Assembly: GCA_964357075.1 (NCBI GenBank)
Contig: CAYHJR010000001.1
Span: forward strand, 1-35,486
Reading direction: 5' to 3'
DNA: 35,486 bases
Source: an uncultured Candidatus Saccharibacteria bacterium
GTDB taxonomy: Bacteria > Patescibacteriota > Minisyncoccia > Phycocordibacterales > JAKFXT01
This document shows, piece by piece, positions 1,903-35,324 of this stretch; the first letter of the stretch is position 1, and each line of letters begins with the position of its first letter. The notes below the pieces were generated by a model. It did no database searches. It was not told where the DNA came from and saw only the letters and a program-made list of their open reading frames with translations. The translations under genes were made by a program, and so were the position numbers.

Positions 1903-2979
1903 CTACATTCCCTCTTTGCGTAATTCTTCCAAAAGCTTTTTTGTTTCTTTGGACAGTTTTTGCGGCATTAGGATTGTGATTTTGATGAGTAGGTCGCCAC
2001 GTCTGTTTCTTTCATACGGCACTCCGCGGTCTTTAACGCGCAGAACTTCACCGTGAGAAATACCGGCCGGGATTTTTATGGCAACGTCTCCTTCAAGAGT
2101 TTTAACGGCGTAATCTGCACCCAAAAGAGCGTCGGTCAGTTTTACGCTGATTGTTGTTGTTAAATTATTTCTGTCGCGCGAAAGTGTATGGTGTTTTTTG
2201 ACATATATTTTTACATAAAGGTCCCCCGAAACGCCGTTTTGCACGGCCTCACCTTTTTGCGAAAGCCGTATTACTTCACCGCTTTCAATCCCCGCCGGAA
2301 CGCCAATTGTAATTTCTTCTTGTTTTTTCAGTATTCCTTGTCCATGACAAGTGCCACATTTTTCTTTTGGTATTTTTCCGCTTCCTTTACAGACAGCGCA
2401 TTCGCGAGTAACGCTAATAGAGCCGAAAAATGAACGTTTATTTTCGCGGATTTTACCATTGCCATTGCAGGTCGCACATTTGTCCAGTGTAGTGCCTGGT
2501 TTTCCGCCTGTTCCTTTGCAAACTTCACAAACGCCTATTTTAGACAGAAGGACTTTTCTCTCAACGCCGAAGACACTTTCCTCAAAAGTTAGCTCCAAAT
2601 CAATTGATATATCACGGCCACGATTCACCCTCTCACGCGTGCCGCCAAAGAAATCACCGAATATGTCTCCCAAATCATCGACATTAACGTTGCCAAATCC
2701 TTGGCCGGAGAAATTACTGAAATCAAAACCATTGAAACCGGAGAATCCTTGAGCGCCACCACCGCCTCCTCCGAATGTCTGTCCGTAGGCGTCGTACTCG
2801 GCTCTCTTTCTATCGTCAGAAAGAATGGCATAGGCCTCGTTTAATTCTTTAAATTTATCACTGCTACCACCTTTTTTATCAGGATGATACTTATGGGCCA
2901 TTTTATGAAAGGCTTTTTTTACATCGTCTTTGGTAGCGTTTTTTTCTAAGCCCAGAATGTTGTAATAGTTTTTCGCCAT
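1903..2979 (-). CDS. dnaJ: molecular chaperone DnaJ
   Basis: J domain with HPD (YHPDKK), a G/F-rich linker, and four CxxCxGxG zinc motifs ([32 protein letters not shown]). Confidence 0.97.
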
Positions 2980-2992
2980 ATTCTTTACTACA

Positions 2993-3022
2993 AATCTAAT
3001 TTAGATTGATACATCTTGTCAA
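2993..3022 (-). promoter_or_regulatory. candidate sigma70-type promoter for dnaJ
   Basis: Minus strand reads TTGACA (3022..3017), an 18-nt spacer, then TAGATT (2998..2993), 13 nt before the dnaJ ATG. It overlaps the palindrome AATCTAA-T-TTAGATT (2992-3006) and sits downstream of a terminator. Confidence 0.3.
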
Positions 3023-3075
3023 ATTTTAAATCATGATTTAGAAATCATTAAAACAAAACTATTGAATAATAAGCT

Positions 3076-3332
3076 AACAAAAAAACCGCCTCAAGCTGAG
3101 AGACGGCGAATAAATGGATAAGGTGACAGCCCCATTCCGCATCCAGATCGGTTCACCCAATTCTAGTAATGGGTTAATCTCGTACACCGGGGAGCGACCC
3201 CAGCATCGTATAATTCCGACGTCCTGGCCCAAGATGGGGGTGTCCTCCTTTGTCTTTGTTACTCTTCCAACTGTGGTTGTCTAGATGCCCCCCCAGAGAC
3301 TAAGGTAAAGGAAGACACAACCACATACTACT
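3076..3332 (-). ncRNA. unclassified structured RNA candidate in the dnaK-dnaJ spacer (about 255 nt)
   Basis: A GC-rich island in an AT-rich genome. It has its own promoter-like signal upstream and an intrinsic terminator downstream. Several strong helices are visible, e.g. GUGUCUUCCUUU/AAAGGAGGACAC, UGGUUGU/ACAACCA and CUGGGG-ucgcu-CCCCGG. No convincing ORF. Confidence 0.4.
3079..3106 (-). terminator. rho-independent terminator
   Basis: Minus strand: CCGUCUC-UCAGCUU-GAGGCGG (7-bp stem including one G-U pair) followed by UUUUUUU. Confidence 0.6.
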
Positions 3333-3338
3333 GAATAT

Positions 3339-3367
3339 AATATAACAAAAGCGATTTTCCATTGCAA
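3339..3367 (-). promoter_or_regulatory. candidate sigma70-type promoter for the RNA candidate
   Basis: Minus strand reads TTGCAA (3367..3362), a 17-nt spacer, then TATATT (3344..3339), directly after the dnaK stop. Confidence 0.4.
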
Positions 3368-3381
3368 CAGCTCAGGAATTA

Positions 3382-5319
3382 TTATTTCGTTTCGGCGTCG
3401 CGGATTGGCGGCTCTTCCCCGTTTTCTTTTTTATCTTCCATTTTTTCTTCCGTTGCTTGTTGTTTGTCGTTGGTGGCTGGTTGTTCGTTGTTCGTTGTTT
3501 GTTGTTGGTTCTGCTTATACATCATTTCACCAATTTTTGAGACCTCTCCAGAAAGGGCTTCCAATGCTTCTTTTAAGCCCGTCCCAGTTTCTTTGGCTTT
3601 TTTAAGTTCAGTGATTTTTGTTTCAATTCCAGTTTTAATATCGGCTGAAACCTTGTCCCCGGCATCTCGAACAGCTTTTTCGGCGGTGTGAATTAATTGG
3701 TCGGCTTGATTTCTCATTTCGGCTTCTTCTTTTTTCTTTCTGTCGTCCACTTCGTGTTCTTGCGCTTCTTTTTTCATTCGTTCAATTTCCGCATCGGTTA
3801 GACCCGAGCGCGCTTCTATGCGAATTGATTGTTCTTTGCCGGAGGCCTTATCTTTGGCTTTAACTTGCAATATGCCGTTCACGTCAACATCAAAGGTAAC
3901 TTCAATCTGCGGTAGCCCTCTCGGAGATGGTGGTATGCCGTCTAAAATAAATCTTCCTAAGCTTTTATTGTCAACTGCCATAGGACGTTCCCCTTGAGTG
4001 ATGTGAATTTCAACCGAGGTTTGATTGTCGGCCGCCGTAGAAAACACTTGCGACTTACTGGCCGGAATATGGGTGTTTTTTTCTATCAAATGAGTAGTAA
4101 CATTTCCCAATGTTTCTATGCCAAGCGAAAGCGGAATAACGTCAAGTAAGAGCACGTCTTTAACATCTCCCTGCAGTATTCCCGCCTGAATAGCGGCGCC
4201 AATCGCCACCACTTCATCCGGATTGATTGATTTGTTTGGTTCCTTATTAAATAAGTTTTTAACCGCCGCCTGTATGGCCGGCATTCTAGTTTGTCCGCCG
4301 ACCAGAATTACTTCATCTATTTCGGTAAATTGTATTTTTGATTCGGTAATGGCTCTTTTACTAATTTCTACGGAACGGTCAATAAATGGTTTGGCCAATT
4401 CCTCCAATTTTGAACGGCTTAATTTGAGTAACAGATGTTGCGGGCCTGAAGCGCCGGAGGTGATAAAAGGAATATTTATTTCTGTTTCAATCGTAGTCGA
4501 AAGTTCATGCTTGGCTTTTTCGGCCGCTTCATCCAATCTCTGCACCGCCAAGGGGTCGTTCATTATGTCTATACCGCTCTCTTTTTTAAATTCACCGGCA
4601 ATGTATTGCATCACAGTTCTGTCTATATCGCGTCCGCCCAAGTGAGAGTCGCCGTCAGTCGATTTTACTTCCAGTGTGTCATTGCCTTCGGCGTCATGTA
4701 TGACTTCCAAAATGGAAATATCAAAAGTTCCGCCACCAAAGTCAAAAACAGCTATTTTTTCATTTTTCTTTTTATTAAAACCATAGGCCAAGGCAGCCGC
4801 CGTCGGCTCGTTTATTATTCGCTTAACAGTCAAACCGGCAATCGCCCCGGCGTCTTTGGTGGCTTGCCGTTGCGCGTCGTTAAAGTAGGCCGGAACCGTA
4901 ATTATGGCTTCGGTTATTTTTTCTCCAAGCTTGGCCTCGGCATCATTTTTTAATTTTTGCAAAATGAAAGCCGAGATTTGTTCCGGTGTGTAATATTCGT
5001 CTCCGAGTTTTACTTTGACTCCTCCGTTATCACTTTTTTCTATTTTGTAAGAAGTATTTTTGGCGTCCTTTTGAACCGCTTCTTCACTAAAGGAGTGGCC
5101 GATAAAACGTTTGATGCCATAAACGGTATTTTGCGGGTTTGTAACCGCTTGGCGCTTGGCCAATTGTCCCACCAATCTTTCTCCGGTTTTGGAAATTGCC
5201 ACAATTGAGGGCGTGGTGCGCACTCCTTCGGCATTTTCAATAATGCGCGGCTCCCCGCCTTCAATTATGGCGAGGGCGGAATTCGTAGTTCCCAAATCTA
5301 TGCCTAATATTTTTGACAT
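3382..5319 (-). CDS. dnaK: molecular chaperone DnaK (Hsp70)
   Basis: [17 protein letters not shown] and [11 protein letters not shown] motifs; full-length Hsp70 with a low-complexity Q/T/N tail. Confidence 0.98.
3452..3514. repeat. heptanucleotide array (GTTGNTN) x9 inside the dnaK 3' end
   Basis: gttgctt gttgttt gtcgttg gtggctg gttgttc gttgttc gttgttt gttgttg gttctgc. That is 63 nt, or 21 codons, encoding roughly [21 protein letters not shown]. Confidence 0.8.
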
Positions 5320-5332
5320 TTTTTTATTTAAA

Positions 5333-5908
5333 TTAATTTTTATTGAAATGTCCGACTCTGACCTTGGCCGGATTAATTACTCTCTCTCCGATTTTCCAGC
5401 CACTATCAAGGAGCGCTGTTATGGTATCGTCCTTTGAATTATCGCTGACCAAGTCCTGTCCCAAGGCCTCGTGTTCGGCGGGATTAAATTTTTGGCCGAT
5501 TTCCGCTTTTATTTCACTCAAGCCCAAGCTATTAAACGCCGATTGAATTTGTTTTGCAATCCCTTGGAAATTTTCGGGAATTTGACCCAAATTTTTGGCG
5601 CGATTTAGGGATTGAAGCGCGGGTAAAATTGCTTCAAGAGCGATTGACACTCCTAGATTTTTTGCCCCCTCCCTCTCCTCTTTAAAGCGATTTAGGGCGT
5701 TCGCGTAATCGGCCCTGGCTCTCTGCCAGCCCAAGAGATTTTCTTGGCGTTCCGCCTCGCAAACTTTGAGTTTTTCTTTTAATTTGCGAAGCGGGTCTGG
5801 CCCATTTTCCCCGTCTTCTTCTATGGTAATTTCCGAATCGGCGTTTGTATTATTGTCGCCGTTCGCATTTTCGTCAAGAGTTTCCTTTTTTTCCTCGTCT
5901 TTTTTCAT
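5333..5908 (-). CDS. grpE: nucleotide exchange factor GrpE
   Basis: Sits immediately upstream of dnaK. Coiled-coil N-terminus, and a C-terminal FNPAEHEAL...[16 protein letters not shown] block typical of GrpE. Confidence 0.9.
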
Positions 5909-6048
5909 ATAAAAGTGGCTTTTTCTTTGTTTTAATTCCTTAATTTCGGAGATAGGTTTGAAAGAACTTGCACAGCGCGACTGGCGCGAGCAGAGAAAAT
6001 TTTCAGCAGAAAATTATTCGTGTCTTTCAAACCCATCTTAAAAACATT

Positions 6049-6456
6049 TTAACGTTTAGACCACTGCGGGGCCTTGCGGGCCTTCTTGAGGCCGAATTTC
6101 TTGCGTTCTTTGGCGCGCGGATCGCGTTTTAGGAAACCGGCATGTTTTAAAACGGGACGGAGATTGCCGTCTATTTCAATTAAAGCCCTGGCTATGCCGT
6201 GTCTTATGGCTTCCGCTTGAGCATTTATGCCACCGCCCGAAACTTTGGCCGACACCGCAAAAGAGGTTTCAACTGGACCACTTTTAAGGGCTTCTGTCAC
6301 AATATGTTGATGTTCGCGAATGGCAAAATATTGCTTCAAATCTTTCCCGTTCACGGATAAGGAATTTTTGCTGGCTTTGGTTAGCCGGACGCGAGCGATG
6401 GCGTTTTTACGGCGGCCAATGCCCTCGGTATATTTATCGGTTTTGGTTGTTTGCAT
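6049..6456 (-). CDS. rpsI: 30S ribosomal protein S9
   Basis: GGGINAQAEAIRHGIARAL and a C-terminal ...RKAPQWSKR. Confidence 0.95.
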   Translation of the reverse strand: MQTTKTDKYTEGIGRRKNAIARVRLTKASKNSLSVNGKDLKQYFAIREHQHIVTEALKSGPVETSFAVSAKVSGGGINAQAEAIRHGIARALIEIDGNLRPVLKHAGFLKRDPRAKERKKFGLKKARKAPQWSKR

Positions 6457-13074: not shown

Positions 13075-14865
13075 CTAGCTCAATGTTCCTTTGATACGGC
13101 GGATACCGGCGGAGATGGCTTCTTCTTTTTGAATTTTAAAAATGGCTTTCCGAACGTTTCCGTCAGGCCCCACTACACTTCCAAGGTCGGAAGTGTTATG
13201 GACATGCGGTCCGCCGCAGAATTCCAAACTAAAGTCCCCAATTTTATAAACCCGAACCTTATCACCGTATTTTTCTTCAAAAAGACCGATAGCGCCAAGT
13301 TTTTCCGCCTTCTCAATCGGCAAATCTTCAAAGGTGACCGGCATGGCTTCATCAATTTTTTGATTTACCAAATCTTCCACTTTTTTCTTTTCTTCATCAG
13401 TCATTTTACGGTCAAATGAAAAATCAAAACGAAGACGCTCCGGGGTAATATTACTGCCCTTTTGAGACACTTTTTCTCCCAGGGTCTGCTTTAGGGCTTT
13501 GTGCAGAAGATGAGTAGCGGTGTGATATTTAACAGACATGTCGCTTGCATCAGCCAATCCCCCCTTGAATTTCTTTTCCGCTCCGACTCTGGACAGCTCC
13601 TGGTGTTTCTTCATTTCCTCTTTGAATCCCGCCTCATCCACTTCTTTTCCCTCCTCTTTGGCCAACTCTTTGGTCATTTCAATTGGAAAACCGAAAGTGG
13701 AAAAAAGTATAAAGGCCTCATGACCGGTAATTTTTCCGGTAGAAAGTTTTTTGAATTCGCGCAAACCGTCGGTAAGTGTTTTTCTAAAACGATTTTCTTC
13801 TTCGGTGATTTCTTTTTTGATTTCAGAAACTTTTTCCTTCAAGTTCGGATAAACGTCTTGATATTTTTCAATCACGACTCCCGAAAGAAGAGCCAAATCA
13901 CCTTCTCTCATTTTCAATTTATCGCCGGAAAATATTGCCCGGCGTAAAAGACGGCGCAGAATATATCCTTGGTCGGTATTAGACGGGGTGACGCCGTCGG
14001 CAATCAAAAACACGGAAGTTCGTATATGGTCAGCTACTATGCGTTTTGCTTTAATATCGTGCTCGATGGAAAAATCATCAATTTTCCGCATTATCGGCTC
14101 AAACAAATCCGTTTGGAAAATATTGTCTTTTCTTTGCATCAGCATGGCCAAGCGTTCGAGTCCAGCGCCGGTATCAACGTTTTGCTGTGTAAGTTTTCCG
14201 ATTACTTTCCCGTCTTTCTTTTGAAATTCCATGAAGACGTCATTCCAGAACTCTACGATTTTTTGACCATCCGTTGCTTTAAGAAAATTTTCTTTAGAAA
14301 GCTCGCCCAGTCCCTTTTCCGTAAGGTCATAAAACATTTCCGTATCGGACCCGCAGGGCCCGTTGTTTCCCGGGCTCCACCAATTATCTTTAACACCCAA
14401 AAAATATATTCTTTCTTTTGGTATGCCCAAGGACTCCCAGACCTCAGCCGACTTTTCATCCTTGGGCGCGTTTTCATCACCTTCAAAACAGGTTATATAG
14501 AGGCGTTTTGGGTCAAGGCCGAGTCCCTCTTCTTTTGAGGTAATAAATTGATAGCTCCAGGTTATGGCTTCGTCTTTAAAATATGAGCCGAGCGACCAAT
14601 TGCCAAGCATTTCAAAAAAAGTGACGTGGGTGTTGTCCCCGACTTCTTCTATGTCTTGTGTCCGGACGCATTTCTGGACGTTCACCAGCTTGTCCCCCTC
14701 CGGGTGAGGTGTTCCCATTAAATAGGGAATCAAAGGTTGCATGCCGGCTGTCGTAAAAAGGACAGACGGGTCATTTTCCGGAACAAGCGAAGCGGAAGGT
14801 AAAATGGCGTGTCCGCGGGACTTAAAAAAAGATAAGAAGCGCCGGCGAATTTCTTCAGATTTCAT
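13075..14865 (-). CDS. alaS: alanine--tRNA ligase, short form (catalytic, tRNA-binding and editing domains; no C-Ala domain)
   Basis: RFLSFFKSRGH...FTTAGMQP at the N-terminus. Editing-domain motifs HTATHLLHKAL and CGGPHV. The protein ends about 30 aa after the editing domain: 596 aa, versus about 870 in typical bacteria. Confidence 0.95.
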   Translation of the reverse strand: MKSEEIRRRFLSFFKSRGHAILPSASLVPENDPSVLFTTAGMQPLIPYLMGTPHPEGDKLVNVQKCVRTQDIEEVGDNTHVTFFEMLGNWSLGSYFKDEAITWSYQFITSKEEGLGLDPKRLYITCFEGDENAPKDEKSAEVWESLGIPKERIYFLGVKDNWWSPGNNGPCGSDTEMFYDLTEKGLGELSKENFLKATDGQKIVEFWNDVFMEFQKKDGKVIGKLTQQNVDTGAGLERLAMLMQRKDNIFQTDLFEPIMRKIDDFSIEHDIKAKRIVADHIRTSVFLIADGVTPSNTDQGYILRRLLRRAIFSGDKLKMREGDLALLSGVVIEKYQDVYPNLKEKVSEIKKEITEEENRFRKTLTDGLREFKKLSTGKITGHEAFILFSTFGFPIEMTKELAKEEGKEVDEAGFKEEMKKHQELSRVGAEKKFKGGLADASDMSVKYHTATHLLHKALKQTLGEKVSQKGSNITPERLRFDFSFDRKMTDEEKKKVEDLVNQKIDEAMPVTFEDLPIEKAEKLGAIGLFEEKYGDKVRVYKIGDFSLEFCGGPHVHNTSDLGSVVGPDGNVRKAIFKIQKEEAISAGIRRIKGTLS

Positions 14866-17323: not shown

Positions 17324-17358
17324 CAACTACCGACTACAAACTAGTGACTACCCACTAT
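17324..17358. repeat. 35-nt heptamer array (NNACTAN) x5; on the coding strand this is UAG every 7 nt
   Basis: Coding strand: aTAGtgg gTAGtca cTAGttt gTAGtcg gTAGttg. The first TAG is the mnmA stop codon. Homologous to 28545-28579. Confidence 0.9.
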
Positions 17359-18491
17359 TTAATTATTCCACCCCCCAAGCAAATTTCCCCATTATAAAAA
17401 ACAACAGATTGCCCCGGCGAAACCAGAATTGATTTTTTGAAGGTAACAATGTTTTTTAGGACTCTATTCCCCAAGGCTAAGCCTTGGTAGCTACCAAGGC
17501 TTAGCCTTGGGGGGTTTGAGCTAACGGTGCAAAGGTGTTCTTCTCCATGATAACGAATCTGTGCTTTAATTTTCCGATCTTTAAATTCCTCCTCTATCCA
17601 ACTAATCTTTTCTAATTCGTAAGTCGCTTGCCCGCCTAAATTTTTACTCCGTGAAAATTTAGGCGGGTGAAGAACGTGAGAAACAACGATTTCATTTTTT
17701 GAAACATTTTTTTTGACGACATAATACGGTTTATCATTGGGGGTTTTTTTGTTGACTGTAAAGCCGTGCCGTTCGCCAATCGTATGAAACAGAGCCCCTC
17801 TGTGCGTGCCTATGATTTCTCCTTTTTCGTTTAAAATTTTCCCTTTTTTCTCCGACATAAAATGTTTTAGGAATTGCTTCATATCAACATTGGATATAAA
17901 GCAAAGTCCTTGGCTGTCTTTTTTCTCTGCCGTAGCAAGTTTGGCTTTTCTCGCAATCTCTCTTACGGCTTCTTTTTTCAGATGACCAACTGGGAACAAA
18001 ATATGTCTCAATTGTTTCTGTGTTAATGTCCAAAGGAAGTATGTTTGATCTTTTCCTTCATCGTCTCCTCTTAAAAGCTGGGCGCTGGAAGCTGGGCGCT
18101 GGAAGCTGATTTTCGCATAGTGCCCGGTAGCCACGTAATCGGCGCCATTTTTTAAAGCCCATTTTAAGAAGGCGCCGAATTTAACGTGCTTATTGCAAAA
18201 AACATCCGGGTTTGGCGTTCTGCCAGCTTTATACTCCGAAATCATATAATCAATAACTTCCTTTTTATATTCCTTTTCCAAATCAAGCGTTATAAAAGGA
18301 ATGCTAAGGTGAGCCGCGACCTTCATGGCGTCCAACCTGTCTTCTCTCCAAGTGCAAGGTATAAACTCGGGTTGCCAGACCTTTATAAAAACACCCGTGA
18401 CATTGTATCCGGCTTTTTTGAGTAGATATGCCGACACTGAAGAGTCCACTCCCCCGGATAGGCCAACAAAAACTTTTTTTCTCTCGCTCAT
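17355..18491 (-). CDS. mnmA: tRNA 2-thiouridine(34) synthase MnmA
   Basis: PP-loop VFVGLSGGVDSSV, and a C-terminal SPGQSVVFYNGEICLGGGII. I start at the MSERKK ATG (18491), because the track's extra 16 codons run into a hairpin. Confidence 0.93.
   Translation of the reverse strand: MSERKKVFVGLSGGVDSSVSAYLLKKAGYNVTGVFIKVWQPEFIPCTWREDRLDAMKVAAHLSIPFITLDLEKEYKKEVIDYMISEYKAGRTPNPDVFCNKHVKFGAFLKWALKNGADYVATGHYAKISFQRPASSAQLLRGDDEGKDQTYFLWTLTQKQLRHILFPVGHLKKEAVREIARKAKLATAEKKDSQGLCFISNVDMKQFLKHFMSEKKGKILNEKGEIIGTHRGALFHTIGERHGFTVNKKTPNDKPYYVVKKNVSKNEIVVSHVLHPPKFSRSKNLGGQATYELEKISWIEEEFKDRKIKAQIRYHGEEHLCTVSSNPPRLSLGSYQGLALGNRVLKNIVTFKKSILVSPGQSVVFYNGEICLGGGIIK
17469..17512. repeat. 44-nt perfect palindrome inside the mnmA coding sequence
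   Basis: CCCCAAGGCTAAGCCTTGGTAG / CTACCAAGGCTTAGCCTTGGGG. Encodes roughly PRLSLGSYQGLALG. Confidence 0.95.
18075..18109. repeat. heptamer array (aagctgg gcgctgg) x2.5 inside mnmA
   Basis: aagctgg gcgctgg aagctgg gcgctgg aagctga. Encodes SFQRPASSAQL. Confidence 0.9.
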
Positions 18492-18531
18492 ACACCTAAC
18501 TTTATTCAAAAAGTCCAAAAACACAATGATA

Positions 18532-18556
18532 ATCCCCAAGGTTTAACCTTGGGGAT
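18532..18556. repeat. perfect hairpin of the CCCCAAGG family in the mltG-mnmA spacer
   Basis: ATCCCCAAGGTT-T-AACCTTGGGGAT (12-bp arms). Confidence 0.9.
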
Positions 18557-18570
18557 TTAAGAGAAAGTGA

Positions 18571-22147: not shown

Positions 22148-25093
22148 TTAATTTTTTACCACAAAATTAATAATCTTACCCTTGACATACACGACCTTTT
22201 CGAACCCGCCCAAAATCCACTTTCCAATTATCGGGTCGGATTTTGAAAGTGAAATAACTTTTTCTTCCAAAGCGTCATTGTCAACCTCTATCATACCGCG
22301 GGTCTTGCCATTAACCGAGACCGGCAAATAGATATTTTTCTTTATCAGTTTTTTCCTATCATGTTTCGGCCATGGCGTAAGATGAACGTTTTTTTTATTA
22401 CCAAGATTATGCCAAATTTCTTCCGTCAGATGAGGAGCAAAAGGTGAGAGCAATTTCAAAAATATTTCAAAATCCTTTCTTGAAACAGAGTTGGATTTTT
22501 CAAATTCGTTGGAAAGTATCATCAGAGAGCTAACTGCCGTATTCATTTTAAGCTCTTCAATATCCTCCCCCACTTTCTTAATCGTCTTATGCATTAAGGA
22601 ATCCAGTTCTTTACTTGTTGGTTGTTGGTTGTTGGTTGTGAGTTTTTCCTGAAGCTTCCACACCCTTTCTATAAAACGACGACACCCGACCATGCTATCT
22701 GTATTCCAAGCAATCGCTTGCTCAAACGGTCCCATAAACATTTCATATAATCTCAAGGTGTCAGCTCCAACTTTCTCAATAATGGTGTCCGGGTTTATGA
22801 CATTGCCTTTAGATTTACTCATCTTTACTCCCCCTTCGGCTAGGATTAATCCGTGGGAAGTTCTTTTCTTGTAAGGTTCTGATGTGGGTACCAGTTTTAA
22901 ATCGTAAAGAAACTTGTGCCAAAATCTTGAATACAAAAGGTGAAGCGTGGTGTGTTCCATTCCGCCGTTATACCAATCCACCCCGTTAGAGGTGGGCTCA
23001 CGCTGCGGGCCCTCGCGACCTCTAACGGGGCGAGCCGTCAGCCAATATTTTAGGTTTTTTTGCGAGGCAAACTCCTTTTTATTTTTAGGGTCAGTGTAGC
23101 GAAGATAATACCAGCTTGAGCCGGCCCAATTTGGCATCACGTCTGTTTCGCGTCTGCCTTTGCCTTTGCATTTTGGGCATTTGACGTTTACCCATGAAGA
23201 GATATTCGCCAAAGGCGATTCGCCGGTATTTGTCGGTTTATAGTTTCTAACTTTTGGAAGCAATACCGGTAATTGCTTTTCCGGCACCGGCACAAAGCCG
23301 CATTTCTCGCAATGTATTATAGGTATCGGTTCACCCCAGTAGCGCTGCCGCGAGAAAACCCAGTCACGCAGTTTAAAAGTTGTTGTTTTTTTACCCCTCA
23401 CAAACTTGGTGATTGCCCACTTGGCTTTTTCACTATCCATTCCGTTAAATTTTCCGGAATTAACAACGACTCCTTCCCCCGTATAACAAAAACTTTCCTT
23501 GTCCCAGCGTGAGAGCCAAATATCCAACTCCGCATGAACAATTTTTGGGTATGCAATCTCATTTTTAGAGAACCAAACAATTTCATAACTTTCCTTTTCT
23601 TCCTGACTTCTTTCTTCTTGGGCTTCATCAATAAGCTCAAACATTACGGCGTTAGTGAAAGATATTCTATTTTCGTCTTTATGCGCCGCATAATATTCCG
23701 CTCTGGCAACACCCCCCATTACTTTTACCAACTTTAAATTGGTGTATCCAGTTTCTTCTCTGGCTTCTCTTCTTGCCGCTTCAACCAAATCCTCCCCCTC
23801 ATGAACCCCGCCCATGGGAAAAGTAGTCCAAGGCTGTTTTTTCCACTTTAAACATAAAATCTTGCCGTCCCGAGGATTTCTGATAATTGCGTGCACATTC
23901 CTTCTTTCTACAATTTTTTTACCTTTGCGTGGTGGGTTGTATATATCTATTCTATTCGGAATTACAACTTCTCTTATCGGCAAATTAAATCTTTTAGCAA
24001 ATTCAAAATCCCTATCATCATGCGCCGGCACCGCCATAATAGCGCCGGTGCCATAATGTCCGAGAACATAGTCCGCGACATATATAGGAATTTCTTCTCC
24101 GTTTGCCGGGTTAATTGCCATCAAACCATCGAGCTTTACTCCCGTTTTTTCTCTGCTTGCGTCCGTTCTCTCCTTCTCATTAATTCTAGAAGCAAATTCA
24201 AGGTACATCTTAACCTCAAGAGAATTTTTTACTTTATCTTTGTGGGTTTTTATTAATTCATGCTCCGGCGCTACCACTAAATAAGTGGCGCCGAAGAGAG
24301 TGTCGGGCCTCGTGGTAAAAACTGAAATAGCTTCCAACTGTCGGCTTTTAGCTTTTAACTTTTCTTCACCCTGAAAGCTGGAACCTGAAAGCTGAAAGCT
24401 GACTAATGCTCCTTCGCTTCTGCCTATCCAATTTCTCTGCTGTGTCACAACTTGCGGTATATAATCAACCAAATCTAAATCTTTATGAAGACGGTCGGCA
24501 TATTTGGTAATAGCCAGCATCCATTGTTCTTTATCGCGCTTTTCGGTTGGCCCATCACAACGCTCACATTTTCCATCTACAACCTCTTCATTGGCCAAAC
24601 CAATTTTACAATTCAGACACCAATTAATCGGCACCTTGGCTTTGTAAGCCAATCCTTTTTTGAAAAGCTGTAAAAAAATCCATTGTGTCCATTTATAATA
24701 TCTCGGGTCAGTAGTATTAATTTCACGCGACCAATCAAAGGAAAAACCAATTTGTTTCAATTGTCTTCTAAAAGTGTCTGTATTTTGTTTGGTAACAATT
24801 TCTGGGTGAATTCCGGTCTTGATTGCATAATTTTCAGTCGGCAATCCAAAAGCGTCCCACCCGATTGGATAAAGCACGTTATACCCTTCGGAACGGCGCT
24901 TCCTCGCAATTATGTCCATGGCCGTGTTACTCCTAATGTGGCCAACGTGGAGTCCATCGCCTGATGGATAAGGGAACTCTATAAGACCGTAAAATTTTTT
25001 CTTTTTAGAAGGAAATTGAGCATTGTCTATCTTTTGCTTACCCCAAATCTTCTGCCACTTCTTCTCAATCTTTTTATGGTCGTACTGATGCAT
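22148..25093 (-). CDS. leuS: leucine--tRNA ligase carrying an inserted Nudix domain and repeat-derived insertions
   Basis: HIGH (GLHVGHIRS), KMSKS (VKMSKSKGN), CP1 editing motifs (TTRPDTLFGATYLVVAPEH, GTGAIMAVPAHDDRDFEFA), and RDWVFSRQRYWGEPIP. The start is taken at MHQYDHKKIEKKWQ (25093). Confidence 0.95.
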   Translation of the reverse strand: MHQYDHKKIEKKWQKIWGKQKIDNAQFPSKKKKFYGLIEFPYPSGDGLHVGHIRSNTAMDIIARKRRSEGYNVLYPIGWDAFGLPTENYAIKTGIHPEIVTKQNTDTFRRQLKQIGFSFDWSREINTTDPRYYKWTQWIFLQLFKKGLAYKAKVPINWCLNCKIGLANEEVVDGKCERCDGPTEKRDKEQWMLAITKYADRLHKDLDLVDYIPQVVTQQRNWIGRSEGALVSFQLSGSSFQGEEKLKAKSRQLEAISVFTTRPDTLFGATYLVVAPEHELIKTHKDKVKNSLEVKMYLEFASRINEKERTDASREKTGVKLDGLMAINPANGEEIPIYVADYVLGHYGTGAIMAVPAHDDRDFEFAKRFNLPIREVVIPNRIDIYNPPRKGKKIVERRNVHAIIRNPRDGKILCLKWKKQPWTTFPMGGVHEGEDLVEAARREAREETGYTNLKLVKVMGGVARAEYYAAHKDENRISFTNAVMFELIDEAQEERSQEEKESYEIVWFSKNEIAYPKIVHAELDIWLSRWDKESFCYTGEGVVVNSGKFNGMDSEKAKWAITKFVRGKKTTTFKLRDWVFSRQRYWGEPIPIIHCEKCGFVPVPEKQLPVLLPKVRNYKPTNTGESPLANISSWVNVKCPKCKGKGRRETDVMPNWAGSSWYYLRYTDPKNKKEFASQKNLKYWLTARPVRGREGPQREPTSNGVDWYNGGMEHTTLHLLYSRFWHKFLYDLKLVPTSEPYKKRTSHGLILAEGGVKMSKSKGNVINPDTIIEKVGADTLRLYEMFMGPFEQAIAWNTDSMVGCRRFIERVWKLQEKLTTNNQQPTSKELDSLMHKTIKKVGEDIEELKMNTAVSSLMILSNEFEKSNSVSRKDFEIFLKLLSPFAPHLTEEIWHNLGNKKNVHLTPWPKHDRKKLIKKNIYLPVSVNGKTRGMIEVDNDALEEKVISLSKSDPIIGKWILGGFEKVVYVKGKIINFVVKN
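22614..22641. repeat. heptamer array (GTTGTTG) x4 inside leuS
   Basis: cttgttg gttgttg gttgttg gttgtga. Encodes TTNNQQPTS. Same word family as the dnaK tail array. Confidence 0.85.
22981..23030. repeat. GC-rich hairpin element in frame inside leuS
   Basis: CCCCGTTAGAGGT, 24 nt, ACCTCTAACGGGG (13-bp perfect arms). Encodes part of TARPVRGREGPQREPTSNG. Confidence 0.9.
24324..24400. repeat. eleven-unit heptamer array inside the leuS CP1 region
   Basis: gaaatag cttccaa ctgtcgg cttttag cttttaa cttttct tcaccct gaaagct ggaacct gaaagct gaaagct. Confidence 0.85.
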
Positions 25094-25122
25094 TAGAGAA
25101 ATATACCTTATAGAAAGATAAG

Positions 25123-25152
25123 TTGACAATATTTTATAATTTCTGATATAAA
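25123..25152 (+). promoter_or_regulatory. candidate plus-strand promoter diverging from leuS
   Basis: TTGACA (25123-25128), 17-18 nt, then ATATAA/TATAAA (25146-25152). Confidence 0.35.
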
Positions 25153-27072: not shown

Positions 27073-27116
27073 ATTAATCCCTTATTTATATCTATAGATA
27101 TAAATAAGGGATTAAT
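27073..27116. repeat. 44-nt perfect AT-rich palindrome
   Basis: ATTAATCCCTTATTTATATCTA / TAGATATAAATAAGGGATTAAT. Confidence 0.95.
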
Positions 27117-27132: not shown

Positions 27133-27360
27133 TTATTTGATTTGCTTATTTGACCACCACTCTCTGGCAACATAGAGAACGCCTAAACCGACCGTAATTA
27201 AAACAGCTTGTGTGATGGTCATGGTTATTTGGAAAATAGCTTCAATAAATGCCCAAATTCCAACTAACATTGCAACACCAAAAATTAGAGCCCCAAAGAT
27301 TGTTGCTGTGGCACTTTTAATTTCTCTTGAGTGTTCTTTGATTTTTTCCCACTCGTTCAT
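27133..27360 (-). CDS. small two-TM membrane protein, unknown function
   Basis: 75 aa with two hydrophobic helices after a polar N-terminus. Confidence 0.45.
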   Translation of the reverse strand: MNEWEKIKEHSREIKSATATIFGALIFGVAMLVGIWAFIEAIFQITMTITQAVLITVGLGVLYVAREWWSNKQIK

Positions 27361-34745: not shown

Positions 34746-35083
34746 CCCATTAGAAAGTCGCTCGCGATAGGAAACGCGAACACCTTTGAATTACTGTTAA
34801 ACTTGATTTCTCGGTCATATGTCTTTTTGTCTTTTTCCGTCGTAGCGACTTCTAACGGGATAAATACACAAAACGCCCTGAAATGGGCATAGTGAGTATA
34901 GCAAAAAATCTTCTTTTGCGCCAAGCAAAGCAAGTACCCTCATAGGACGGCCCTATGGAGTTTAGGAGATTTGACTTCTGGATTTGTGCAATCTGACAAG
35001 CCTTTATCGACTTCAGTATGTCTTTAACGTTCTTCTTTCAATCATTTTACCACTAGCATAATTTACTACTAACATAATATATA

Positions 35084-35126
35084 AATAGTGAAAATACCTA
35101 CGATCGTTGGTATTTTCACTATTTTT
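35084..35126. terminator. 15-bp perfect hairpin with flanking T-runs (possible bidirectional terminator/insulator)
   Basis: AATAGTGAAAATACC-tacgatcgtt-GGTATTTTCACTATT followed by TTTAAAAATTTTT on the plus strand. Confidence 0.45.
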
Positions 35127-35324
35127 AAAAATTTTTAAAATTGGACATACAGACATGATGAAAGGGGGGCGGGAAGAAAGAAAATAAAGTGGAAAAGCAG
35201 AGATGTCTGTGGGATTTGAAACAAAGGTATTTTTGAGATATCCTTCCCTAAAAGCTAATAGCATCCACCAGAGGACGGATCAGTCCTTTGGCTGGGAAAG
35301 CTAGAAGCTTATTATGCGCCAATA

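What the first reader, a model, noticed from the sequence alone, without database searches (positions are those of the whole stretch)
17469..17512. 44-nt perfect palindrome translated in frame within MnmA (reminiscent of Rickettsia palindromic elements)
CCCCAAGGCTAAGCCTTGGTAG|CTACCAAGGCTTAGCCTTGGGG is a perfect 22+22 palindrome. Each half is itself a hairpin (CCAAGGC-TAA-GCCTTGG). It lies between the conserved CTV and SPGQSVVFYNG blocks of the MnmA C-terminal domain, where this protein is about 15 residues (45 nt) longer than E. coli MnmA as I recall it. A related hairpin, ATCCCCAAGGTT-T-AACCTTGGGGAT, sits at 18532-18556 just upstream of the same gene. In-frame palindromic insertions in essential genes are known from Rickettsia (RPEs). 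Here they would indicate a small mobile or recombinogenic hairpin family in a reduced genome.
Basis: partly seen in the sequence, partly recalled or inferred. Interest (0 to 1): 0.62.

Follow-up and report, generated by a model that had tools for sequence, protein, structure and literature searches.

The report
Translated REP-like hairpin doublet in MnmA
The perfect 44-base palindrome inside the tRNA-thiolation gene mnmA of this ultra-small groundwater bacterium is real. It is a copy of a tiny hairpin repeat (CCAAGG-5 bases-CCTTGG, usually paired head to head) found near hairpin-cutting transposase-like genes in metagenome contigs that look like the same bacterial group, and it is often read as protein inside loops of housekeeping enzymes.

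Summary
Observation confirmed. Window 17469-17512 is a perfect 22+22 palindrome, in frame in mnmA (minus strand). It adds about 16-17 residues in a loop between two strands of the C-terminal barrel. The extra residues are absent from 21 aligned MnmA relatives and from solved MnmA structures. The element is in three assemblies and in contigs of six of seven sequencing runs, with strain variants, so it is not an artefact.

It consists of two inverted copies of a 17-nt unit, CCAAGG-N5-CCTTGG. A third unit forms the hairpin just upstream of mnmA.

In those loci the gap is 5 nt in 317 of 321 units. The two N5 are reverse complements in 80 of 112 doublets. About two thirds of doublets lie in long open frames of housekeeping genes, including three more MnmA genes.

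Fifteen of the 120 loci carry a Y1/IS200-like gene whose model best matches the REP-associated tyrosine transposase structure 4ER8. Units flank or sit inside that gene in 14 of them.

Best reading: a REPIN-like doublet of a REP/RAYT-type family, tolerated in a disordered loop. This is a new variant of a known kind (intragenic REPs, Rickettsia RPEs).

The parts
17469..17512 (.). 44-nt perfect palindrome: a head-to-head doublet of two hairpin units (REPIN-like), translated in frame on the minus strand as (P)PRLSLGSYQGLALG within MnmA
   Evidence: Sequence and inverted-repeat search. Fold -26 kcal/mol, z -8.6. Insertion relative to 21 relatives and PDB MnmA. Architecture falls within the family's range: spacer 6, outward extension 2, arm 22 against a median of 20.
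17471..17487 (.). Unit A: CCAAGG-CTAAG-CCTTGG
   Evidence: The 5-nt gap matches 317 of 321 units in the metagenome loci.
17494..17510 (.). Unit B: CCAAGG-CTTAG-CCTTGG. Its N5 is the reverse complement of unit A's, so this is an inverted duplicate, not a direct one.
   Evidence: 80 of 112 metagenome doublets show the same inverted N5 relation.
18531..18557 (.). Solo unit with an extended 13-bp stem (core 18536-18552, CCAAGG-TTTAA-CCTTGG). It is intergenic, 13 nt after the mltG/yceG stop and 39 nt before the mnmA start.
   Evidence: -12.5 kcal/mol, z -5.6. The same N5 class appears as a doublet in metagenome locus L178.
17355..18491 (-). mnmA (tRNA 2-thiouridine(34) synthase), the host gene. The palindrome-encoded residues are 328-342 in the numbering of the 379-residue translation.
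   Evidence: Pfam. PDB hits 2hma, 2der, 9hlv at E about 1e-87. In the AF2 model (pLDDT 84.8) residues 328-345 have pLDDT below 50, between strands 319-325 and 348-356.

Best explanation
The palindrome is a REPIN-like doublet: two inverted copies of a 17-nt hairpin unit, CCAAGG-N5-CCTTGG. The unit belongs to a small repeat family found in many metagenome contigs that look like Patescibacteria (CPR).

The family behaves like REP/REPIN elements. It occurs as solo hairpins and head-to-head doublets, and it clusters at, around and inside genes for a Y1/HUH (IS200-like, RAYT-type) single-strand DNA nuclease. That nuclease is the inferred mobilising or maintaining enzyme.

In these gene-dense contigs a copy landing in a gene would survive only if it keeps the frame and sits in a permissive loop. 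The constant boxes contain no stop codon in any of the six frames, which makes this easy.

Here a doublet entered, or was built in, the loop between two strands of the MnmA C-terminal barrel. This happened after the split from the nearest sampled relative (66% identity) and before the divergence of the local strains. It is now translated as a disordered surface loop of about 15 residues. At strain level the palindrome is decaying by uncompensated point changes.

Shown: the palindrome, the insertion, the family, its coding bias, the association with the Y1 gene, and the loop location in the model. Inferred: mobilisation by the Y1 enzyme, translation and tolerance of the insert, the presence of a Y1 gene in this particular genome, and the Patescibacteria assignment of most host contigs.
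For: - **Insertion.** Searches show the extra residues are lacking in all relatives.
- **Real DNA.** Three assemblies and six sequencing runs carry it.
- **Family.** The doublet pattern (about 0.08 chance hits expected per 1e12 nt) gave at least 120 metagenome loci and none in 2.9 million viral contigs. The gap is 5 nt in 317 units, against 3 with gap 6 and 1 with gap 10. The N5 pairs are inverted in 80 of 112 doublets, across many recurrent N5 classes.
- **Coding location.** Of 112 doublets, 63 lie in stop-free spans of at least 150 aa. Hosts include UvrA, UvrB, UvrC, TopA, DnaE, RecG, PheT, MiaA, IscS/SufS-like, YchF and MnmA. Doublets lie in long frames at 67-76%, against 73-87% for random positions in the same contigs.
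- **Enzyme link.** Five host ORFs are Pfam Y1_Tnp. Fifteen of 120 doublet loci hold such a gene, against 1 of 80 control Patescibacteria loci (Fisher p = 0.003). In 14 of the 15, units lie within or within 300 bp of the gene. In L163 and L198, doublets flank both ends.
- **Enzyme identity.** The only NCBIfam hit is REP-associated tyrosine transposase. The best fold match is 4ER8, a RAYT bound to a REP hairpin, at E = 1e-5, ahead of IS608 and ISDra2 TnpA. The H-F-H motif and tyrosines are invariant in 28 homologues. Among the 120 best homologues listed (of more than 6000), every one that carries an organism name is from CPR groups.
- **Tolerance.** The insert has pLDDT below 50 between two strands in a confident model.
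- **Strain alleles.** The alleles keep the insert but carry 3 synonymous and 2-3 non-synonymous uncompensated changes in the palindrome.
Against: - The window's own genome could not be searched. Whether it holds a Y1 gene or more units is unknown. The 35-kb window has no Y1 homologue and only three units, all at mnmA.
- No empty-site allele was found in seven runs, so mobility at this site is not shown directly.
- No target-site duplication or conserved flanking motif was found. The classic GTAG/CGTC REP tag is absent (11 of 570 flanks, about 9 expected).
- The Y1 protein scores well below NCBIfam's RAYT cut-off (36 against 80 bits).
- 80 relatives' mnmA loci (1.2 Mb) have no such unit, so the family is patchy.
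- Only 28 of the 120 doublet loci show nucleotide similarity to the control Patescibacteria loci. The taxonomic assignment of the rest is inferred.
- At orthologous sites in diverged genes the N5 of both units differ together. Simple insertion followed by neutral decay does not predict this.
Confidence: 0.75

Rival explanations
1. Local, transposase-independent origin. A pre-existing short hairpin in or near mnmA was copied and inverted by replication template switching (quasi-palindrome or fold-back synthesis at the self-complementary AGCT centre). The doublet would then be a mutational by-product, not a transposed element.
For: - All three units in the window lie within 1.1 kb, at mnmA.
- The relative L003 has a solo unit in another mnmA loop.
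- The unit loops differ as TAA against TTA, as expected for an inverted copy.
- The palindrome centre is the self-complementary AGCT.
- No target-site duplication and no empty site were found.
Against: The same doublet architecture, with the same constant boxes and a 5-nt gap in nearly every unit, recurs in at least 120 unrelated loci and clusters around Y1 genes. Purely local mutation does not explain a shared 12-nt constant core or the recurrent N5 classes across samples. Template switching could still be how solo units become doublets.
Confidence: 0.13
2. A host-selected nucleic-acid signal. The hairpin would be kept inside genes because the DNA or RNA structure itself does something, for example as a binding site for a domesticated Y1 protein, a control point for transcript processing or stability, or a replication or repair signal.
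For: - At orthologous sites in genes whose flanks are only 71-83% identical, the doublets persist with intact boxes. Their two N5 differ in a coordinated way: MiaA L108/L109, MnmA L127/L170, UvrC L137/L175, IscS L088/L126.
- The Y1 family itself carries a unit-derived QGxPL segment at a conserved position.
- MnmA is hit at three independent loops, where about 0.1 hits are expected.
- Hosts are enriched in repair and replication genes, as reported for REPs in other phyla (PMC3733652).
Against: - Three strain alleles of this very element carry 5-6 uncompensated changes in the arms.
- Positions, orientation and reading frame vary freely: frames 30/23/10.
- The N5 classes are discrete and recurrent. 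That fits replacement or conversion from other copies better than compensatory point mutation.
- 80 Patescibacteria mnmA loci lack any unit.
Confidence: 0.1
3. Assembly artefact or a chance palindrome.
For: Palindromes can arise from chimeric fold-back reads, and coverage in the ENA contigs is low (cov_3).
Against: - The element is present in the NCBI MAG, two ENA assemblies and Logan contigs of six runs from two studies, with strain variants.
- The gene continues in frame on both sides.
- The chance expectation is 3.5e-9.
Confidence: 0.01

Closest known systems
REP / REPIN elements with RAYT (REP-associated tyrosine transposase; E. coli TnpA-REP, PDB 4ER8), including the intragenic REP dimers described by Di Nocera et al. 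2013 (PMC3733652)
   Same: - Short hairpin units of 17-27 nt per arm.
- Solo units and head-to-head doublets that fold into a longer hairpin.
- Units flank a Y1/HUH gene on both sides, as in a REPtron.
- The enzyme's best fold match is 4ER8.
- Copies sit inside genes, often as dimers, notably uvrA, uvrB, uvrC and dnaE. PMC3733652 reports the same for Opitutus and Rickettsia.
   Different: - No GTAG or CGTC tag.
- The conserved part is the stem itself (CCAAGG/CCTTGG), with a variable 5-nt centre whose length is almost invariant.
- The same boxes recur across contigs of 29-65% GC from many samples.
- About two thirds of doublets are intragenic, not a minority.
- The Y1 protein is below the RAYT equivalog cut-off and carries a unit-derived segment in frame.
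Rickettsia palindromic elements (RPE; Ogata et al., as summarised in PMC10969869)
   Same: Palindromic repeats inserted in frame into unrelated housekeeping genes of a reduced genome and translated as extra peptide segments that appear compatible with the fold.
   Different: - RPE-1-type elements are about 150 bp and encode a conserved peptide of about 50 aa. This element is 44 nt (15 aa), and its peptide depends on frame: PRxxLG, QGxxL or KxxPW.
- RPEs have no known dedicated enzyme. Here a Y1 gene is associated.
- The phylum is different.
IS200/IS605 TnpA (IS608, ISDra2) and their hairpin ends / PATEs
   Same: A Y1 HUH fold and recognition of hairpins in single-stranded DNA (an established property of that family).
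   Different: - No IS-like left and right ends and no tnpB were seen.
- The repeats are symmetric doublets, not asymmetric subterminal hairpins.
- The gene is flanked by repeats of the dispersed family.

Membership tests
REP/REPIN-RAYT | Short (20-40 nt) palindromic unit able to form a hairpin | tested here: met
   A 17-nt core with a 6-bp stem, extended by flanks. The doublet folds at -26 kcal/mol.
REP/REPIN-RAYT | Units commonly paired in inverted orientation (REPIN/BIME-like doublets) | tested here: met
   The window's element is such a doublet. 80 of 112 metagenome doublets have inverted N5, but the scan pattern itself required two units.
REP/REPIN-RAYT | Many copies within one genome | not testable with these tools
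The window holds 3 units. 39 of the 120 metagenome loci hold 3-7 units.
REP/REPIN-RAYT | A RAYT-type Y1/HUH gene flanked by the repeats (REPtron) | tested here: met
   Met for the family: 15 of 120 loci, with units within 300 bp in 14, and both flanks occupied in L163 and L198. Fold best match is 4ER8. Not testable for the window's own genome.
REP/REPIN-RAYT | Unpaired GTAG or CGTC tetranucleotide at one end of the unit (PMC3733652) | tested here: not met
   GTAG in 11 of 570 outward flanks (about 9 expected). CGTC in 2.
REP/REPIN-RAYT | Predominantly extragenic location | tested here: not met
   67-76% of doublets lie in long open frames, against 73-87% of random positions.
REP/REPIN-RAYT | Enzyme reaches the curated RAYT model (NCBIfam NF047646, cut-off 80 bits) | tested here: not met
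   35-36 bits. It is the only hit, but below the cut-off. Pfam Y1_Tnp is passed by two of the three tested (30.5 and 40.9 bits against 23); the third scored 22.5.
Rickettsia palindromic elements | In-frame insertion into unrelated protein-coding genes | tested here: met
Rickettsia palindromic elements | Element of about 100-150 bp encoding a family-specific conserved peptide | tested here: not met
   44 nt (34-44 nt in the family). The peptide differs by frame. The RPE size is taken from PMC10969869.
MITE (TIR + TSD) | Target-site duplication flanking the element | tested here: inconclusive
   No conserved flank or obvious duplication. No empty site was available to define the boundaries.

The most novel reading that the evidence does not exclude
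The CCAAGG-N5-CCTTGG hairpins are not just tolerated junk. They would be a system, spread widely across CPR bacteria, in which a Y1 nuclease keeps rewriting the same permissive loops of essential genes.

The evidence that leaves this open:
- At orthologous sites in MnmA, MiaA, UvrC and IscS the boxes persist while both N5 are swapped together between recurrent classes.
- MnmA is occupied at three different loops.
- The enzyme gene itself carries a unit in frame.

That would mean targeted re-insertion or conversion at hairpins. It would amount either to a nucleotide-level signal maintained inside essential genes or to an enzyme-driven source of loop variation in reduced genomes.
Probability: 0.2. 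Interest if true: 0.8.

Novelty: new variant of a known kind. Interest (0 to 1): 0.58.

Why it matters
- **Annotation.** Short, odd-looking 12-17-residue inserts such as PRxxLG..QGxxL or SKGSPW in CPR housekeeping proteins may be repeat-derived rather than functional motifs. The repeats can also create false N-terminal extensions, as with the 394-aa call for this mnmA.
- **Range.** It suggests that REP/RAYT-type biology extends to Patescibacteria, with a different recognition logic: a conserved stem box and no GTAG/CGTC tag.
- **Testability.** It gives a defined substrate (CCAAGG-N5-CCTTGG) and a small enzyme for biochemical tests.
- **Evolution.** In these gene-dense contigs most copies are translated. 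The system therefore offers a natural experiment on how selfish hairpins shape protein loops, and on why repair, replication and tRNA-modification genes are hit so often.

Tried and rejected
- **Own-genome census.** This test is still missing.
- **Relatives.** 80 Patescibacteria mnmA loci (1.2 Mb, at most 57% identity) contain no CCCCAAGG..CCTTGGGG hairpin. The window's own genome and L003's genome did not appear among the returned genome-contig loci.
- **Empty-site allele.** None was found in seven runs, and none among metagenome loci.
- **GTAG/CGTC tag or a conserved target motif.** Absent.
- **A possible decayed copy in alaS** (14426-14466, CCAAGGACTCC...CCTTGG). Rejected: the peptide PKDEKSAEVWESLG is native and aligns without a gap to the relative's AlaRS.
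- **Viral contigs.** No doublet.
- **tRNA-mimic idea.** I considered that the hairpin mimics a tRNA anticodon arm for MnmA autoregulation. I dropped it because the loops differ between copies (TTAAA, GCGGT, CTAAG) and none resembles the Lys, Glu or Gln anticodon loops (reasoning from the sequences).
- **Restriction-site origin** (StyI-type CCWWGG ends). Dropped as a source of palindromes, because the CAAG/CTTG overhangs are not self-complementary.
- **Sequence search of the Y1 protein against PDB.** No hit. The fold search was needed.
- **Literature.** No paper in the library combines RAYT/REPIN or RPE with CPR, Patescibacteria or Parcubacteria.

Full report
**1. The observation**

Window 17469-17512 is CCCCAAGGCTAAGCCTTGGTAG|CTACCAAGGCTTAGCCTTGGGG, a perfect 22+22 palindrome. 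About 3.5e-9 such palindromes are expected by chance in 35.5 kb. As single-stranded DNA it folds at -26 kcal/mol, z = -8.6 against shuffles.

It lies on the coding (minus) strand of mnmA, 17355-18491. Pfam finds the tRNA_Me_trans HUP, PRC-barrel and C domains, and the closest solved structures are 2hma, 9hlv and 2der at E about 1e-87. It is read as (P)PRLSLGSYQGLALG between ...HLCTVSSN and NRVLKNIVTFKKSILVSPGQSVVFYNG.

It sits 13 nt after the stop of the upstream yceG/mltG gene and 39 nt before the mnmA ATG.

**2. Not an artefact**

The window is an NCBI MAG contig of a groundwater Patescibacterium. Two ENA assemblies of replicate 0.1-µm filters from the same well (Hainich H41) carry the same gene. 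The palindrome is identical in one and has one change in the other.

Logan contigs of six of the seven runs found, from two studies, also cover the palindrome. They reveal two further strain alleles:
- Allele A has three changes in one arm, all synonymous.
- Allele B has two changes, both non-synonymous.

No allele compensates its changes in the other arm, and no contig skips the element.

**3. It is an insertion**

The pneumococcal MnmA aligns with a 14-residue gap exactly at the palindrome peptide. In an alignment with 21 relatives, including the closest at 66-70% identity, the window's protein alone has 16-17 extra residues.

An AlphaFold2 model (pLDDT 84.8, pTM 0.85) puts residues 328-345 at pLDDT below 50, in the loop between strands 319-325 and 348-356 of the C-terminal barrel. 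A tolerated surface loop is therefore the most likely reading. That is inferred from the model, not shown experimentally.

**4. Anatomy**

The palindrome is two copies of a 17-nt unit, CCAAGG-N5-CCTTGG. They are in inverted orientation (N5 is CTAAG then CTTAG), joined by TAGCTA and flanked by CC and GG. The upstream hairpin is a third unit (N5 TTTAA) with a 13-bp stem. These are the only units in the window.

The syntenic contig of the nearest sampled relative (L003, GCA_038063555.1) lacks the insertion. It does carry a solo unit, CCCCAAGG-GCGGT-CCTTGGGG. That unit lies in another loop of its own mnmA and is read in the same frame, as TPRAVLGE.

Eighty more Patescibacteria mnmA loci (1.2 Mb) carry none.

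**5. The family**

A scan of metagenome contigs for the doublet architecture, CCAAGG-N5-CCTTGG-N(0-10)-CCAAGG-N5-CCTTGG, expects about 0.08 chance hits per 1e12 nt. The same pattern gave nothing in 2.9 million viral contigs.

Within those 120 loci:
- The gap inside a unit is 5 nt in 317 cases, 6 nt in 3 and 10 nt in 1.
- In 80 of 112 distinct doublets the two N5 are reverse complements. A limited set of N5 classes recurs across samples: ACTCC, TCTCA, ACTAC, ACCGT, GATGC and others.
- The window's CTAAG and TTTAA classes occur in other contigs: L087, L171, L116, L191 and L178.
- The window's element is typical in arm length and spacer.
- Six of the loci are from Hainich wells H41 and H51.
- Two more copies with unrelated flanks appear in the runs that hold the window.

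**6. Where the copies sit**

Of the 112 doublets, 63 lie in stop-free spans of at least 150 aa. Away from contig ends, 67-76% lie in long frames, against 73-87% of random positions in the same contigs. The elements are therefore barely excluded from genes.

Hosts are housekeeping genes: UvrA (2), UvrB, UvrC (3), TopA (3), DnaE (2), RecG, PheT (2), MiaA (2), IscS/SufS-like (3), YchF (2), prepilin peptidase (2) and a PurL-like protein.

Three more are MnmA genes, hit in two other loops. L160 carries a doublet in the variable linker. L127 and L170 carry one in the same loop as L003's solo unit.

The encoded peptide depends on frame: PRxxLG, QGxxL or KxxPW. The constant boxes have no stop codon in any frame (and directly from the sequence).

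**7. The enzyme link**

Five host ORFs form one family that Pfam calls Y1_Tnp, IS200-like. tblastn finds such a gene in 15 of the 120 doublet loci, against 1 of the 80 control loci (p = 0.003). In 14 of the 15, units lie inside the gene or within 300 bp of it.

In L163 the gene (5427-6080) has doublets at 5360-5393 and 6087-6120. In L198 the gene (2882-3562) has doublets at 2610-2650 and 3573-3613. This is the REPtron layout.

- The protein's only NCBIfam hit is REP-associated tyrosine transposase, though below the cut-off.
- Its AF2 model (pLDDT 81.7) best matches 4ER8, a RAYT bound to a REP hairpin, ahead of IS608 and ISDra2 TnpA.
- The H-F-H motif and tyrosines are invariant in 28 homologues.
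- Among the 120 best homologues listed (of more than 6000), every one that carries an organism name is from CPR groups.
- Many of these genes carry a unit in frame near residue 50, which gives a conserved QGxPL segment.

**8. Dynamics**

At the strain level the window's palindrome decays without compensation.

Across deeper divergence the picture differs. At orthologous sites in genes whose flanks are 71-83% identical, the doublets persist with intact boxes. Both N5 differ in a coordinated way. Examples are MiaA ACCGT/ACGGT against TCCGA/TCGGA, and MnmA ACTCC/GGAGT against GATGC/GCATC.

Because the N5 classes are discrete and recurrent, I read this as replacement or conversion from other copies, not compensatory point mutation. 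That reading is an inference. It keeps open a more interesting possibility of targeted re-insertion or maintenance at hairpins.

**9. Comparison with what is known**

REPs, REPIN doublets and RAYTs are well known. Di Nocera et al. 2013 (PMC3733652) already reported REPs inside genes. More than half of those were dimers or groups, and they were notably in uvrA, uvrB and dnaE. [quoted passage not shown] RPEs of about 150 bp are the classic in-frame case (PMC10969869).

This family shares the hairpin units, the doublets, the flanked Y1 gene and the intragenic copies in repair and replication genes. It differs in five respects:
- It lacks the GTAG/CGTC tag.
- Its conserved part is the stem box, with an almost invariant 5-nt gap.
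- The same boxes recur across very different contigs.
- Most copies are intragenic.
- The enzyme is divergent.

I found no paper linking RAYT/REPIN or RPE to CPR bacteria. Earlier notes of this scan report similar hairpins in other CPR genomes. I treated them as leads and tested the enzyme association on independent loci here.

**10. Verdict**

The best explanation is a REPIN-like doublet of a REP/RAYT-type family, tolerated in a disordered MnmA loop (confidence 0.75). This is a new variant of a known kind.

The main gaps are three:
- No empty site was found.
- There is no biochemical proof that the Y1 protein acts on these hairpins.

Noticed in passing
window 17631-17667 (mnmA, minus strand): A second, unrelated in-frame hairpin in the same gene: CCCGCCTAAATTTTTAC-TCC-GTGAAAATTTAGGCGGG, encoding PPKFSRSKNLGG (pLDDT below 50 in the model). 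It is shared only with the relative L003, where the stem shows a compensatory synonymous pair (CCG/GGC becomes CCA/GGT). Many metagenome contigs with unrelated flanks match it, so it looks like another dispersed hairpin family.
   Followed up: partly
window 22981-23030 (leuS, minus strand): A GC-rich 13-bp-stem hairpin, CCCCGTTAGAGGT-24 nt-ACCTCTAACGGGG (-19.5 kcal/mol). It lies in frame next to the GGxEH-type core of LeuRS. It is an 18-residue insertion (LTARPVRGREGPQREPTS) relative to the LeuRS of L003, which is 75.5% identical.
   Followed up: partly
window 27073-27116: A second perfect 44-nt (22+22) palindrome, AT-rich (ATTAATCCCTTATTTATATCTA|TAGATATAAATAAGGGATTAAT). It is intergenic, 16 nt after the stop of the ORF at 27133-27360. 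It is unrelated in sequence to the CCAAGG family but has the same length.
   Followed up: no
window 35080-35127: A 48-nt near-perfect palindrome (92% complementary), TATAAATAGTGAAAATACCTACGA|TCGTTGGTATTTTCACTATTTTTA, in a gene-poor stretch.
   Followed up: no
window about 18078-18110 (mnmA): A tandem direct repeat, GCTGGGCGCTGGAA x2.3, in the variable linker of MnmA (SFQRPASSAQ). This is the same loop that carries a CCAAGG doublet in the MnmA of metagenome locus L160.
   Followed up: no
window 22148-25129 and L003 3029-5875: LeuRS carries a NUDIX-like domain between its synthetase segments. PF00293 is listed for the L003 orthologue, and the window protein has the GGVHEGEDLVEAARREAREETGY motif.
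   Followed up: no
metagenome loci L127, L160, L170 (MnmA); L088, L126, L184 (IscS/SufS-like); L108, L109 (MiaA): Among 63 ORF-embedded doublets, three are in MnmA (about 0.1 expected), three in cysteine desulfurase-like genes and two in MiaA. tRNA-modification and thiolation genes are hit unexpectedly often, alongside the repair and replication genes.
   Followed up: partly
loci L096, L107, L114, L131, L135, L145, L168, L181 (Y1 genes); alignment A3: The RAYT-like genes themselves contain an exact CCAAGG-N5-CCTTGG unit in frame near residue 50. In genes where the DNA unit has decayed (L163, L198) the peptide QG(I/L)P(I/L) is still conserved (Q54 and L58 nearly invariant).
   Followed up: partly
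loci L091, L102, L103, L113, L125, L141, L146, L152, L192 (Ga0315911 contigs): A different context for the same 17-nt unit: arrays of direct repeats about 48 nt apart (caaaacCCAAGGnnnnnCCTTGGtgagtct...) inside what look like repetitive ORFs. They may belong to a different organism or element class.
   Followed up: no
window 18492-18539: The 394-aa gene call for mnmA in the ENA assemblies starts at a TTG inside the upstream hairpin. The hairpin creates a spurious 16-residue N-terminal extension (MGIIIVFLDFLNKVRC).
   Followed up: partly
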